Source: an uncultured Treponema sp. (GTDB lineage: Bacteria > Spirochaetota > Spirochaetia > Treponematales > Treponemataceae). From it: 64,000 bases of DNA. The notes under the pieces are model-generated. The model did not search any database, was not told the origin of the DNA, and saw nothing but the letters and a program-made list of their open reading frames with translations. This document shows, in pieces, positions 8,887-11,956 of this stretch. The position numbers were made by a program, and so were the translations under genes. The stretch lies in contig CAMCRZ010000006.1 of the NCBI GenBank assembly GCA_945877425.1, forward strand, positions 4,680 through 68,679. Direction: 5' to 3'. Numbering within the stretch: the first letter of the stretch is position 1; the number at the start of each line of letters is the position of its first letter.

Positions 8887-10569
8887 ATGGAAAAAAGGAA
8901 ATTTGGTTCGTTTAAAAAAGCAATTTTAATTTTGTGTTTTGCTACAGCCGTTATCTCTGCAATGGTATTCATTCCTCAAATCAGAGAATTGATAATGATA
9001 CTTGGAGATAGCGCAGCTGGAAAATCAATAAATCGTGAACTTTGGTCATTCAGACTGATTTTTTGGGAAATACAATTTCTTTGCATTTTAACATTTATAG
9101 TTTTATTTTTAATATTTGAAAACCGCCCCAATCAGTTTGCAAAAAATGATGCGCTTATAAAAACAGATATCGTTTCCTGGCTGCTTGTTGCTGTTTCTTC
9201 AGTTGCTTTAATTGCGCTGGCTTTTCAGAGTAATGATGTCTGGCTTGATGAAACTTTTTCATTAGGACTTGCACGACATTCTGTAAAAGAACTGATTTTA
9301 CTGACTGCTCAAGATGTCCATCCTCCGTTGTATTATTTGATTTTAAAGGCCGGACTTATTTTTAACCCGAATTCAGTTGCACTGGCAAAAATTGTTTCCG
9401 TAATTCCAGTAATCATTATTTTGTGCGTTTCAAATGTCTTTTTTAAAAAAGAATTTTCAAGTCTGTATGCAATAACTTTCAATCTTATTTTAATGTGTAC
9501 ATCAGCTGTTTTTCATTACGCCATTGAAATCAGAATGTATTCATGGGCAATGCTGTTTTGTATGCTGTGTTGTATTTTTTCATATTACATAATCAAAAAA
9601 AACTCTTTCAGATATTTTTTATTTTACGTCATCTTTGCAGTGTGCGGAGCATATTGTCAGTATTGGACAGCTGTTGCACTTGCACTCAATTTTGTGATGA
9701 CCTCCATTCTTTCTTTTGCAAAATACAAGAAAATAAAGAACATCCTAATAACAGCAGCAATCGGAATTGTTTTGTATTTACCGTGGGCTTCCGTAGTTAT
9801 TAAGCAAGTTTCCACTGTTACAGAAAACTACTGGATTGGACCTATTACTCTTAAAACTTTTGCAAACTTCATGTTTGAAGCAATTCCGCTTTCTGGATTT
9901 AGAAAAATAATTGCAATTTTTTTTCTTGGTTTATTTTTTATTAAAACTGTAAAAGCTATCATAAACAAAGATGAAAATTCTTTTTTCCCTCTGATTTGTC
10001 TCCTTACACCGTTTCTCCTTATCATCTGTGCAACTATTATTTCTCTTGCCACAAGACCGATTTTTTATTCAAGATATGTTGTTCCGACAATCGTCTTTAC
10101 AATTTTCTATATTACAATCAGTCTTCACTCCGATAGTTTTCAAAACAAAGAATTGTGTTTTATTTTTCTTTTAGGAGTATCGATGTTTTCAATAAAAATT
10201 GTAGAAATTTTTAAAAATGAAAGGAAATGTTCCGAAGCATATCAAAAGTTTACAAAAACAATGAAAGAAAATCTCTCCGACGATACTGTATTTATGTTTA
10301 GCCAGAATATCAACAGTCATATTCCTGGATGCATTGCATACTTTTTCCCTAAGAATAGAATATGCGGATATTCCATTTCAGAAATGTGGACAAACGCTAT
10401 TTTTTATAGCCAAAATAATTTAATTGAAACGTATGATGGAGAAACAGACATCTGCCTTATCCTTAATGCTGAAGAAAATCCTCCGTCTGAGTTTTCAGAC
10501 ACCGAATGCCATCTGCTAACCATTAGTCAATATCCTGCGAATAAATTTTGTTTTTACAAAGGACAATAA
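8887..10569 (+). CDS. Multi-TM GT-C fold glycosyltransferase (GT39/PMT-like; GtrC role)
   Basis: 'VWLDETFS...QDVHPPLYYLILK...EIRMYSW' motifs; more than 10 TM segments. Confidence 0.75.
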   Translation: MEKRKFGSFKKAILILCFATAVISAMVFIPQIRELIMILGDSAAGKSINRELWSFRLIFWEIQFLCILTFIVLFLIFENRPNQFAKNDALIKTDIVSWLLVAVSSVALIALAFQSNDVWLDETFSLGLARHSVKELILLTAQDVHPPLYYLILKAGLIFNPNSVALAKIVSVIPVIIILCVSNVFFKKEFSSLYAITFNLILMCTSAVFHYAIEIRMYSWAMLFCMLCCIFSYYIIKKNSFRYFLFYVIFAVCGAYCQYWTAVALALNFVMTSILSFAKYKKIKNILITAAIGIVLYLPWASVVIKQVSTVTENYWIGPITLKTFANFMFEAIPLSGFRKIIAIFFLGLFFIKTVKAIINKDENSFFPLICLLTPFLLIICATIISLATRPIFYSRYVVPTIVFTIFYITISLHSDSFQNKELCFIFLLGVSMFSIKIVEIFKNERKCSEAYQKFTKTMKENLSDDTVFMFSQNINSHIPGCIAYFFPKNRICGYSISEMWTNAIFYSQNNLIETYDGETDICLILNAEENPPSEFSDTECHLLTISQYPANKFCFYKGQ

Positions 10570-10600
10570 GGGAAATTTTCCGCTAATTTCCCTTATTGTC
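10562..10600. repeat. Perfect 16-bp inverted repeat with 7-bp spacer (site A, downstream of fic)
   Basis: gacaataagggaaatt-TTCCGCT-aatttcccttattgtc. Confidence 0.9.
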
Positions 10601-11881
10601 TTCTAATTTACGCTCAAAGTCTTTCGTTCTTGCATAGCCTGTCAAACGTTTATTCAGCGGAATTCTTTCTATAAGACCTGTGGCAACCAGAGCCTCCAAA
10701 TCTGAACGCAAGGTTTTTACAGATACATTAAAGCGGGTTTCCAAATCTTTACTTACAAAAACAGACTCAGGCCTTTCTGCGTACATTTTTATAATCTGCA
10801 CCTGACGTTCATTTAATCCCGGAATTCTATATTCCAGCAAAGCATTATTTTCCTGATTTTTCCTTTCAAGATAAACGTGCAGTTCGTCAAAAGCCTGTTT
10901 TAATACTTTTAAATTATATTGAACAAAATAGCCTAAATCAAAATCATCATGCTCGGTATATAAAAACGCTTTTTCGTATTGAACTTTACTTTTATAAATT
11001 ACTCGGGAAATCGAAAGAAATTCCGTAAGCCAGTAGCCTTTTTTTAACATATACCAGTAAAAAAGCGAGCGTGCTGTCCGTCCGTTACCATCTGCAAAAG
11101 GATGAAGATACGAAATCATAAAATGAATGATGATTGCCTTTAGAACAGGATGAATAAAAGTCTTGTCTTCATTGGCAAATTCACAAAGTTGTTCTATTGT
11201 TTCAGGAATTACCGTATAAGAAGGCGGCTCATGGGCAACTTCACCAGTTATTCCGTTTACAACAAAAATATTATTGTCTGTCCTGAAATGCCCTTCATCA
11301 GAAGAATTGTCTAACGTTTTTTCCGTAATCTGCCTGTGAATTTCAAGTACCAGGTCGGGCGTCAGACGGTCACTTTTATGTTCAGAAAGATAGCGGATAG
11401 TATTGTAATTATTTAATATCATCTGCTGGCTTTTGTCTTTTGGCTTTGACTGTTTGCGAAGCATTTCTTTTGCAACTTTTCGGGTTGTAGAAGCCCCTTC
11501 CATCTGACTTGAAGCAATCGCCTCTTCCATAAGGGAACTGATTAAATAATACTGTCTGTTTTTATCTGTAAGGATACTAGTTGAAGACAATGTTCCGCCA
11601 AAATTCATATCAAAATTATGGAGAGCCTGCTGCATAGCCGAAGTTTCTTTTAAGAAAAAAGTGCACGCAGAAAATGAAAACGTTTTTGCCTCGATTCTGC
11701 GCGAATATTTTACGACATTCCAGAAATCTTCCGCTTCTATTCCTTCAGGCACATGATACTTCACCTTGTCCCAATAATAATATTCATCGTTCATTCTGGA
11801 AATAGCAGCAGAATATTCCCCACTCATAAGGATTTCCACAACTTTTGAAGTCAGCGGAATTTTTGGTACTTCTTCAATCAT
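10583..11881 (-). CDS. Fic-family protein with C-terminal winged HTH
   Basis: Canonical Fic motif HPFADGNGRTAR; C-terminal 'SKDLETRFNVSVKTLRSDLEALVATGLI'. Confidence 0.92.
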   Translation of the reverse strand: MIEEVPKIPLTSKVVEILMSGEYSAAISRMNDEYYYWDKVKYHVPEGIEAEDFWNVVKYSRRIEAKTFSFSACTFFLKETSAMQQALHNFDMNFGGTLSSTSILTDKNRQYYLISSLMEEAIASSQMEGASTTRKVAKEMLRKQSKPKDKSQQMILNNYNTIRYLSEHKSDRLTPDLVLEIHRQITEKTLDNSSDEGHFRTDNNIFVVNGITGEVAHEPPSYTVIPETIEQLCEFANEDKTFIHPVLKAIIIHFMISYLHPFADGNGRTARSLFYWYMLKKGYWLTEFLSISRVIYKSKVQYEKAFLYTEHDDFDLGYFVQYNLKVLKQAFDELHVYLERKNQENNALLEYRIPGLNERQVQIIKMYAERPESVFVSKDLETRFNVSVKTLRSDLEALVATGLIERIPLNKRLTGYARTKDFERKLEDNKGN

Positions 11882-11919
11882 ACAAACATATTAACACTGA
11901 TTTTTTCCCTAACGCAAGC

Positions 11920-11956
11920 AAATTAGGGGAAATTTTCCGCTAATTTCCCCTAATTT
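11920..11956. repeat. Perfect 15-bp inverted repeat with the same 7-bp spacer (site B, upstream of fic)
   Basis: aaattaggggaaatt-TTCCGCT-aatttcccctaattt; shares a 23-bp core with site A. Confidence 0.9.

What the first reader, a model, noticed from the sequence alone, without database searches (positions are those of the whole stretch)
10562..11956. Fic gene bracketed by two palindromic sites with an identical 23-bp core
GGGAAATT-TTCCGCT-AATTTCCC occurs at 10570-92 and 11927-49 in direct orientation, 1357 bp apart. Each copy extends to a perfect 15-16 bp inverted repeat whose outer arms differ between sites. Inverted arms around an asymmetric 7-bp spacer is the layout of tyrosine-recombinase core sites, and recombination would excise exactly the fic gene. 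Site A also overlaps the stops of both convergent genes. No recombinase lies nearby. Alternative: operators for the Fic C-terminal wHTH (ctaatttccc recurs at 11940-59).
Basis: partly seen in the sequence, partly recalled or inferred. Interest (0 to 1): 0.62.

Follow-up and report, generated by a model that had tools for sequence, protein, structure and literature searches.

The report
Paired operator sites bracketing Fic gene
The two matching palindromes around this gut Treponema Fic (AMP-transferase) gene are real, but they are most likely twin binding sites for the Fic protein's own DNA-binding tail, a layout kept across this Fic family, and not cut-and-paste recombination sites.

Summary
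The 23-bp core occurs only at 10570-92 and 11927-49 in the 2.4-Mb genome, and each copy sits in a perfect 15-16-bp inverted repeat. It is not a one-off. In 40 of 48 spirochaete orthologues, and 7 of 26 others, the same ~40-bp element lies both against the -35 of a conserved leaderless promoter and over or just after the stop codon. The element is a row of 10-bp GGAAAT boxes ending in an inverted box. Distant Bacteroidales orthologues carry a different palindrome in the same two places. In 13 of those genomes it occurs nowhere else. The class of the predicted recognition helix (xKTxR, xTTxK, xPTxR) predicts the site class without exception. The protein is a class II Fic with a C-terminal winged helix; its closest structures are SoFic and CccR, both shown to bind their own promoters. 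Best reading (about 0.6): cognate operators, with the 3' copy as an auxiliary operator or roadblock. The tyrosine-recombinase reading is not supported as stated. However, orthologous type I restriction operons do carry a single "scar" site where fic is missing, so recombination between the repeats does remove the gene. Solo copies in phages and fic-less genomes remain unexplained. No binding or read data could be obtained.

The parts
10562..10600 (.). Site A (3' site). It is a perfect 16-bp inverted repeat (10562-77 / 10585-600) around the 7-nt spacer 10578-84. On the fic-sense strand it reads GACAATAAGGGAAATT-AGCGGAA-AATTTCCCTTATTGTC and encodes the last Fic codons (..DNKGN*). It contains the stop codons of both convergent genes.
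   Evidence: RNA hairpin -22 to -24 kcal/mol, z -5.2 to -7.7
10570..10592 (+). Copy A of the identical 23-bp core.
11920..11961 (.). Site B (5' site). On the fic-sense strand it has three direct 10-bp boxes: AAGGGAAATT (11952-61), AGGGGAAATT (11942-51) and AGCGGAAAAT (11932-41). These are followed by an inverted box, TTCCCCTAAT (11922-31). The perfect 15-bp inverted repeat is 11920-34 / 11942-56. The site ends about 4 bp upstream of the -35.
   Evidence: position weights from 117 sites
11927..11949 (+). Copy B of the identical 23-bp core.
11888..11917 (-). Predicted fic promoter: -35 TTGCGT (11912-17) and extended -10 TGTTAATAT (11888-96). The ATG lies 6 nt after the -10, so the mRNA is predicted to be leaderless.
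   Evidence: Consensus CC.A.TTT..TTG-16-ATGTTAT..T-5-TATG over 52 orthologous loci; coordinates. Inferred, with no transcript data. The generic sigma-70 scan did not call it.
10583..11881 (-). [quoted passage not shown]
   Evidence: Pfam Fic 2.1e-20; AF2 model pLDDT 88; Foldseek top hits SoFic, CccR and Coxiella Fic2; it is the only Fic gene in the genome
11069..11104 (-). Catalytic Fic motif HPFADGNGRTAR.
   Evidence: invariant in 47 orthologues
11495..11512 (-). Inhibitory-helix motif SSQMEG, matching (S/T)xxxE(G/N), located N-terminal to the Fic motif (class II).
10628..10810 (-). wHTH domain (residues 358-418). The predicted recognition helix VKTLRSDLEALVA is at 10682-10720.
   Evidence: secondary structure of the AF2 model; translation; the helix class co-varies with the site class
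8887..10569 (+). Convergent 560-aa membrane-protein gene with no Pfam hit. Its last codons and TAA stop form part of the left arm of site A.

Best explanation
The two sites are cognate DNA-binding sites (operators) for the winged helix-turn-helix at the C-terminus of the Fic protein encoded between them.

Inferred mechanism:
- Fic dimers bind the array next to the -35 of the leaderless fic promoter and repress their own synthesis. This is what has been shown for the Fic-wHTH proteins CccR and SoFic.
- The second copy over the stop codon acts as an auxiliary operator. It could loop to the promoter site, or act as a protein and hairpin roadblock that insulates this potentially toxic AMP-transferase gene from transcription coming out of, or into, whatever context it sits in. 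In many relatives that context is the hsdR gene, which starts 15-25 nt after the site.
- Because the two operators are direct repeats, they also allow occasional deletion of the gene, which leaves a single scar site.

What is shown: the anatomy, its conservation across the family, the co-variation of site and recognition helix, the restriction of the Bacteroidales palindrome to the fic gene, and the fold.

What is inferred: that binding occurs at all, that it represses, and what the 3' copy does.
For: 1. The bracket is family-wide. A 5'-3' shared segment scores above all 592 shuffles in 40 of 48 spirochaete-type loci and in 7 of 26 others.
2. The 5' site has a fixed place against the -35 of a conserved extended -10, leaderless promoter. 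In Bacteroidales the palindrome overlaps the promoter.
3. Distant orthologues carry different palindromes at both ends of the gene: TTCTTTCCAAT-N9-ATTGGAAAGAA, and the L077, L079 and L098 variants. Within a locus the two copies are identical for up to 41 nt.
4. The recognition-helix class predicts the site class with no exception: xKTxR with GGRAA..TTYCC (47 loci), xTTxK with B1 (15), xPTxR with B3/B4 (4).
5. In 13 Bacteroidales genomes the B1 palindrome occurs only at the fic gene. It is found 5' only, twice 5' (76 bp apart), or 5' plus 3'.
6. GG at -10/-9 of the array is conserved (90 and 103 of 117 sites) yet has no pairing partner, and the boxes are phased at 10 bp. That points to protein recognition and not just a hairpin.
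7. The fold is Fic plus wHTH, closest to SoFic, CccR and Coxiella Fic2.
8. CccR represses its own promoter through two 10-bp inverted repeats (PMC9755527). SoFic binds its own promoter (10.64898/2026.07.09.737422).
9. Site orientation is not fixed: one clade has the 5' site inverted.
Against:
- About 14 Treponema genomes carry near-consensus solo sites but have neither fic1 nor a detectable homologue of its wHTH.
- 14 phage contigs carry the element, while fic1 itself is almost absent from phage contigs.
- Outer arm positions co-vary: pair (-2,22) has odds ratio 4 (p = 0.001) and pair (-5,25) has odds ratio 5.7 (p = 1e-4). In the window, the outer arms of site A are perfectly compensated. Both facts favour a hairpin role.
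- The helix-to-site correlation rests on only 3-4 clades, so it reflects few independent events.
- A 3' operator has no described precedent among Fic proteins.
Confidence: 0.58

Rival explanations
1. The sites are the ends of a mobile fic cassette. A site-specific recombinase encoded elsewhere (Xer-like or another tyrosine recombinase) recombines the two direct core sites. This excises a 1357-bp circle carrying fic, which can re-integrate at solo sites, in the manner of pdif modules or integron cassettes.
For: - Nucleotide homology with orthologous loci in G006, G016 and G021 starts and stops at the two sites, and the flanking genes differ.
- Orthologous type I RM operons show three states: fic with two sites (L019, L143, L144), one site and no fic (L138/G160, L162/G091), and neither (L141/G059).
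- The solo site looks like a hybrid: its left side resembles a 5' site and its right side resembles the flank of a 3' site.
- The layout of inverted arms around a 7-nt asymmetric spacer resembles a core site.
Against: - No recombinase is linked to the sites in any of about 100 loci. The own genome has only two PF00589 genes, both on another contig.
- There are 1-3 copies per genome and no arrays.
- In one clade the 5' site is inverted, which would invert the gene and not excise it.
- The site sequence tracks the encoded wHTH across phyla, which a host recombinase would not explain.
- Remnants of the fic 3' end next to sites (G160, G153, G007) show breakpoints inside the gene, not at the core.
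- Direct repeats of 23-41 bp are enough for RecA-dependent or slippage deletion, so no dedicated enzyme is needed.
Confidence: 0.12
2. The sites act mainly as nucleic-acid hairpins. They would be bidirectional transcription insulators, attenuators or mRNA-end stabilisers that travel with the gene, without any need for Fic binding.
For: - The hairpins are very stable: -18.6 to -30.3 kcal/mol, z -3.5 to -7.7.
- The arms co-vary, and the outer arms of site A are compensated.
- Site A closes two convergent genes.
- In phages the element sits between a stop codon and the next ribosome-binding site, in either orientation.
Against: - There is no T-run, and the terminator scan does not call the sites.
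- hsdR starts 15-25 nt after the 3' site with no promoter in between in about 8 loci, so transcription must read through.
- Three copies lie directly beside canonical terminators: own C4, L188 and L190.
- The loop and the unpaired upstream GG boxes are as conserved as the stem.
- The 5' site lies upstream of the predicted transcription start, so it would not be part of the fic mRNA.
Confidence: 0.13
3. The element is bound by some other factor, or it is a conserved linker between exchangeable modules of phages and defence islands. Candidates for the factor are a host or phage repeat-binding protein such as a ribbon-helix-helix regulator. On this view fic merely sits between two copies.
For: - Solo sites occur in fic-less genomes and in phages.
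- At one phage junction the element lies just upstream of an RHH-like gene and varies in box number and orientation.
- Solo sites precede different genes: hsdR, fic2, an AAA ATPase and small ORFs.
Against: - No partner gene recurs at these sites.
- The element with its variants follows fic across two phyla, and in Bacteroidales it is exclusive to fic.
- Most RM-locus solo sites are followed by exactly what follows the 3' site in fic-bearing loci, as expected of scars left by fic loss.
Confidence: 0.1

Closest known systems
CccR of Yersinia pseudotuberculosis (PDB 7XUX; PMC9755527)
   Same: It is a class II Fic enzyme with a C-terminal HTH domain and no separate antitoxin. It represses its own promoter as a dimer, by binding two 10-bp inverted repeats near the -35 and -10. 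It is the best sequence hit in the PDB and a top structural hit.
   Different: - Sequence identity is only about 19-20%.
- The CccR operator is AGATAATCAT-N26-ATGATAATCT, at the promoter only.
- The present family has an extra ~100-residue N-terminal region, 10-bp phased GGAAAT boxes, and a second copy at the gene's 3' end.
- CccR is secreted by a T6SS; nothing here suggests secretion.
SoFic of Shewanella oneidensis (PDB 3EQX/3ZCN; bioRxiv 10.64898/2026.07.09.737422)
   Same: It has the Fic + wHTH fold and is the top Foldseek hit. The dimer binds its own promoter within 100 bp of the start codon.
   Different: - The SoFic operator sequence is not defined, and no downstream site has been reported.
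- The window protein does not hit Pfam SoFic-like_C, whereas the neighbouring family 'fic2' in relatives does.
Auxiliary operators that act by DNA looping (lac O2 inside lacZ, gal OI inside galE)
   Same: A second copy of the operator lies inside or beyond the regulated gene. In the Bacteroidales clade the second copy sits either 76 bp upstream or about 1.37 kb downstream, a variable placement that is typical of auxiliary operators. This comparison rests on established knowledge only.
   Different: Looping is not shown here. The distance of 1.36 kb is long, and the second site coincides with the stop codon.
pdif modules and integron cassettes (genes bounded by recombinase sites)
   Same: A single gene is bounded by short sites made of inverted arms. 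It is found in many contexts, and empty single-site alleles exist.
   Different: - There is no GTTRRRY core or attC architecture, no intI, and no resemblance to dif.
- There are no arrays, and the copy number is 1-3 per genome.
- Orientation is not fixed.
- The sites co-evolve with the encoded DNA-binding domain.

Membership tests
Fic/Fido enzymes, class II | Catalytic motif HxFx(D/E)GNGRxxR | tested here: met
   HPFADGNGRTAR at residues 260-271. It is invariant in 47 orthologues. Pfam Fic E = 2.1e-20.
Fic/Fido enzymes, class II | Inhibitory helix motif (S/T)xxxE(G/N) in the same chain, N-terminal to the Fic motif | tested here: met
   SSQMEG at residues 124-129, with S124, E128 and G129 invariant.
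Fic-wHTH autoregulators (CccR / SoFic type) | [quoted passage not shown] | tested here: met
   The AF2 model (pLDDT 88) has H358-369, E374-376, H377-384, H388-400, E404-408 and E414-418. Foldseek alignments of 354-398 columns match SoFic, 7CB8, 4RGL, CccR and 8CIL. The Pfam HTH_DeoR hit is only weak, at 9.4e-4.
Fic-wHTH autoregulators (CccR / SoFic type) | Palindromic or repeat site at its own promoter | tested here: met
   The array abuts the -35 in 46 of 52 spirochaete-type loci that have a recognisable promoter. The palindrome lies over the promoter in Bacteroidales.
Fic-wHTH autoregulators (CccR / SoFic type) | The protein binds that site and represses its own transcription | not testable with these tools
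   Support is indirect only: co-variation of recognition-helix class and site class, and the restriction of the palindrome to the fic gene in 13 genomes.
Tyrosine-recombinase core site or mobile cassette | Inverted binding arms around a 6-8-bp asymmetric spacer | tested here: inconclusive
   The 8-7-8 layout is present. However, the 'spacer' is itself a conserved GGAAA box of a 10-bp repeat array.
Tyrosine-recombinase core site or mobile cassette | A cognate recombinase linked to the sites or identifiable | tested here: not met
   There is none next to fic in the roughly 100 loci inspected. The own genome has two PF00589 genes, both on another contig. Serine recombinases were not searched.
Tyrosine-recombinase core site or mobile cassette | Empty sites with one core in relatives | tested here: met
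   L138 (G160) and L162 (G091) have p271-[one site]-hsdR, where L019, L143 and L144 have [site]-fic-[site]. Homologous or slippage deletion between direct repeats explains this equally well.
Tyrosine-recombinase core site or mobile cassette | Excised circle or junction reads | not testable with these tools
The metagenome scan for an empty allele found nothing, and so did its control for the species' presence.
Integron attC | R''-L''...L'-R' architecture with a GTTRRRY core, cassette arrays, and intI | tested here: not met
   There is no GTTRRRY core, only three copies in the genome, and no array.
Intrinsic terminator | G+C-rich hairpin followed directly by a T-run | tested here: not met
   The scan does not call the sites. 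The tails are CTTTGTAAAA, TTCTAATTTA and TAATTTGC. Three copies lie beside canonical terminators.

The most novel reading that the evidence does not exclude
The fic unit may be a self-contained defence cassette bracketed by its own operators.
- Its two operators would keep the toxin silent and insulated.
- They would also serve as homology handles by which the cassette is swapped in and out of the slot in front of hsdR in type I restriction operons.
- The same motif in Treponema phage genomes would be either what the Fic wHTH senses, so that DNA binding switches on AMPylation (as reported for Coxiella Fic2), or a phage decoy that titrates Fic.
Probability: 0.1. Interest if true: 0.8.

Novelty: new variant of a known kind. 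Interest (0 to 1): 0.45.

Why it matters
Autoregulation of Fic-wHTH enzymes by binding their own promoter has been shown for only two proteins, and the operator is defined for one (CccR).

This work adds about 70 natural operator-regulator pairs in at least four specificity classes. That gives a testable recognition code: xKTxR, xTTxK or xPTxR helices against three palindrome types.

It also adds a recurrent second operator at the gene's 3' end, which has no described counterpart in this family. If that copy loops to the promoter or blocks read-through, it would show how a single-gene toxin without an antitoxin is kept safe wherever it lands, including directly in front of hsdR.

Finally, the direct repeats explain the presence/absence polymorphism of fic in type I restriction operons.

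Tried and rejected
- **Genome-wide repeat family (REP, MITE, or IS200/IS605-type ends).** Rejected. There are only 2 (+1 diverged) copies in the own genome and 1-3 copies in 50 of 151 genus genomes, against about 14 chance hits of the reversed control pattern.
- **Recent local duplication as the cause of the 23-bp identity.** Rejected. Both copies are near the consensus, and 30 other loci match as well.
Not general. The 5'-3' similarity is limited to about 37-50 nt (up to 70 nt) in my loci.
- **Empty allele in close strains.** The one other strain found (Logan SRR26444596, 99% identical) has the same arrangement. An exact-protein look-up of TrkA found nothing. The metagenome scans for an empty site and for the left flank both returned nothing, so that test is uninformative.
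- **Synteny in other species of the genus.** None, apart from the 76-aa ORF.
- **A homologue of the Fic wHTH in genomes or phages with solo sites.** None was found.
- **fic as a common phage moron.** Rejected. Only 2 distant hits turned up in 2.9 million viral contigs.
- **fic2 (SoFic-like) as the binder of the solo sites.** Unlikely, because its recognition helix is unrelated.
- **One wasted search.** The first Bacteroidales pattern used the wrong spacer length, N8 instead of N9.
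Full report
**1. The observation**

The 23-mer GGGAAATTTTCCGCTAATTTCCC lies at 10570-92 and 11927-49 on the + strand, 1357 bp apart. None of 100 shuffles gave two matches. The whole 2.40-Mb assembly has no other copy at up to 3 mismatches. Each copy is the centre of a perfect inverted repeat: 16 bp at 10562-77/10585-600 and 15 bp at 11920-34/11942-56.

The gene between them (10583..11881, minus strand, 432 aa) is the only Fic-domain gene in the genome. Site A contains the TAG stop of fic and the TAA stop of the convergent 560-aa membrane-protein gene.

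Read on the fic-sense strand, site B is a row of 10-bp units: AAGGGAAATT, AGGGGAAATT, AGCGGAAAAT, then an inverted unit TTCCCCTAAT. The "asymmetric 7-bp spacer" is therefore part of the third unit.

**2. The bracket is a family trait, not a one-off**

The genus is Treponema, from gut and rumen assemblies. In three relatives, nucleotide similarity to the window begins and ends at the two sites, and the neighbouring genes differ.

Reading the flanks of 80 orthologous loci showed the same array in nearly all Treponema copies. It sits upstream of the promoter and again over the last codons (..EIRGN*) and the stop. Scored formally, the best ungapped 5'-3' match within a locus exceeds all 592 shuffles in 40 of 48 spirochaete-type loci and in 7 of 26 others.

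The upstream copy has a fixed relation to a conserved promoter. The consensus over 52 loci is CC.A.TTT..TTG, 16 nt, ATGTTAT..T, 5 nt, TATG. This is an extended -10 promoter whose start codon lies 4-7 nt after the -10 in most loci, so the mRNA is probably leaderless.

For the window itself, the 3' sites of 30 other loci match its 5' site as well as its own 3' site does. The 23-bp identity therefore reflects two near-consensus copies, not a recent duplication.

**3. The site changes with the protein**

Orthologues at 48-54% identity, mostly Bacteroidales, carry a different palindrome, TTCTTTCCAAT-N9-ATTGGAAAGAA. It lies over the promoter and, in several loci, directly after the stop codon. The two copies are identical for up to 41 nt within a locus. 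L077, L079 and L098 have further variants, again at both ends.

The AlphaFold model (pLDDT 88) places a classical winged helix-turn-helix at residues 358-418, with recognition helix VKTLRSDLEALVA. Sorting 74 proteins by the first turn of that helix gives three classes, and each goes with one site class without exception:
- xKTxR with GGRAA..TTYCC (47 loci)
- xTTxK with the TTCTTTCCAAT palindrome (15 loci)
- xPTxR with two other palindromes (4 loci)

These are few independent events, because the classes are clades. Even so, the pattern is what a cognate regulator-operator pair predicts.

In 13 Bacteroidales genomes the palindrome occurs only at the fic gene. It appears once, twice upstream (76 bp apart), or upstream plus downstream (about 1375 bp apart). 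This variable placement of a second copy is the behaviour of an auxiliary operator.

**4. The protein**

The protein has the catalytic motif HPFADGNGRTAR and the class II inhibitory motif SSQMEG. By sequence the best PDB hit is 7XUX, which is CccR. By fold the best hits are SoFic, a Mycobacterium marinum Fic, Dde_2494, CccR and Coxiella Fic2, all Fic-plus-wHTH proteins.

CccR represses its own promoter by binding two 10-bp inverted repeats as a dimer (PMC9755527). SoFic dimers bind their own promoter (bioRxiv 10.64898/2026.07.09.737422).

**5. Hairpin or protein site**

Both sites fold into very stable hairpins, -18.6 to -30.3 kcal/mol. Two outer stem positions co-vary among 117 sites, with odds ratios of 4 and 5.7.

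Several points argue against a plain terminator:
- There is no T-run, and the scan does not call the sites.
- In about eight loci hsdR starts 15-25 nt after the 3' site with no promoter in between.
- Three copies lie beside canonical terminators.
- The GG of the first box is conserved in 90 and 103 of 117 sites without any pairing partner, and the "loop" is as conserved as the stem.

I read the element as a protein-binding array that also happens to be a strong palindrome. A roadblock or insulator role for the bound palindrome remains possible.

**6. Does recombination between the sites occur?**

Orthologous type I restriction operons (HsdM >= 88%, HsdR >= 82% identical) exist in three states:
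- hsdM-hsdS-(AAA_21 ATPase-p271)-[site]-fic-[site]-hsdR
- the same operon with one site and no fic (G160, G091)
- the same operon with neither (G059)

The solo site is followed by what follows the 3' site in fic-bearing loci, namely TAATT.AAAC and a promoter with TGTGCATAT boxes. It therefore looks like the product of recombination between the two direct repeats.

Nothing points to a dedicated recombinase:
- None is linked to the sites in any locus, and the two PF00589 genes of this genome lie on another contig.
- One clade has the 5' site inverted.
- Remnants of the fic 3' end next to sites (G160, G153, G007) show breakpoints inside the gene.

Repeats of 23-41 bp suffice for RecA-dependent or slippage deletion.

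**7. What stays unexplained**

In a survey of 151 genomes of the genus, the site occurs in 50 genomes (1-3 copies each) and fic1 in 22. About 14 genomes have solo sites but no fic1 and no detectable relative of its wHTH. Some of these are scars in restriction loci, in front of hsdR, a SoFic-like "fic2" or an AAA ATPase. Others are not.

Fourteen phage contigs carry the element in short gaps between co-directional genes, in either orientation, while fic1 is nearly absent from phage contigs. At one phage junction, three related phages carry three forms: a minimal perfect palindrome, the palindrome with two extra boxes on one side, and the inverted form with boxes on the other side. The gene just downstream looks like a ribbon-helix-helix regulator.

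The own genome's third copy (contig C4:16251-93) follows a canonical terminator after a zeta-toxin-domain gene, in a phage- or plasmid-like region.

These copies could be bound by another factor. They could be sensed by Fic, or they could act as decoys. I cannot tell which.

**8. Limits**

No experiment-like data were available. The metagenome scans for an empty allele and for the species itself were both negative. The only other strain found has the same arrangement.

**9. Verdict**

The recombinase reading is not supported as stated, and the operator alternative is well supported by comparative evidence and precedent. I put 0.58 on cognate Fic operators with an auxiliary 3' copy, 0.12 on site-specific cassette ends, 0.13 on hairpin-only insulators, and 0.10 on another binding factor or a module linker. 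This is a new variant of a known kind: Fic-wHTH autoregulation, here with a conserved second operator at the stop codon and co-evolving specificity classes.

Noticed in passing
relatives: L138 7530-7605, L144 5230-5300, L017/L149 and L142 upstream of fic2, L170: A second conserved cis element is a promoter region with three TGTGCATAT / ATATGCACAAA boxes. It stands in front of hsdR, of a SoFic-like 'fic2', or of an AAA ATPase in Treponema type I restriction loci, often right after the GGAAAT-box site. It looks like the operator of another regulator.
   Followed up: partly
own genome contig C4:16251-16293 (L015 5001-5043): A third, diverged copy of the site (AGGGAAATTAGAGGAAAATAGCGGAAATTTCCC) lies directly after a canonical terminator. 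It is downstream of a 429-aa zeta-toxin-domain gene and upstream of a 129-aa ORF with no family, in a phage- or plasmid-like region.
   Followed up: partly
window 6982-12383: trkH (5364-6956) and trkA (12440-13255) are separated by about 5.5 kb. This stretch holds an XRE/CI-type HTH gene, a gtrA-like gene, a GT2 glycosyltransferase, a 560-aa multi-pass membrane protein, fic, and a 76-aa ORF. It may be an inserted island resembling gtr-type glycan-modification clusters. No relative showed synteny.
   Followed up: partly
window 11992-12038: A 22-bp inverted repeat (91% complementary, 3-nt loop) lies between site B and the 76-aa ORF (12153-12383, minus strand). It is probably that ORF's terminator. 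The 76-aa ORF is conserved (55-66% aa) in four other species of the genus, in unrelated contexts.
   Followed up: partly
L194 / L196 / L179 (IMG/VR phage contigs), junction between '...DWEK*' and an 86-95-aa gene: The same phage junction carries the palindrome in three forms: minimal and perfect, with two extra 10-bp boxes, and inverted. The downstream gene (MAEEKKYVGYGYHGGGRK..RISISISGQPEELEQLK) looks like a ribbon-helix-helix DNA-binding protein. Box number seems to change by 10-bp slippage.
   Followed up: partly
G160:C14:10130-10210 (L175 1127-1210); G153:C27 near 34865; G007:C4:94722-94905: Short remnants of the Fic C-terminal coding region (for example ..NFELHLRKIDENKGN*) still attached to a site, without the rest of the gene. 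In G160 the remnant lies just after hsdR.
   Followed up: partly
L107 (Logan SRR26444596) versus window 13255-13420: A 99%-identical strain carries an extra 230-aa gene after trkA and a different left end upstream of the XRE gene. This is strain-level gene-content variation around the locus.
   Followed up: no
G095:C25:75, G095:C29:57, G133:C38:102: In some assemblies contigs end within about 100 bp of a site, as if the repeated element breaks the assembly. fic may therefore be under-counted in draft genomes.
   Followed up: no
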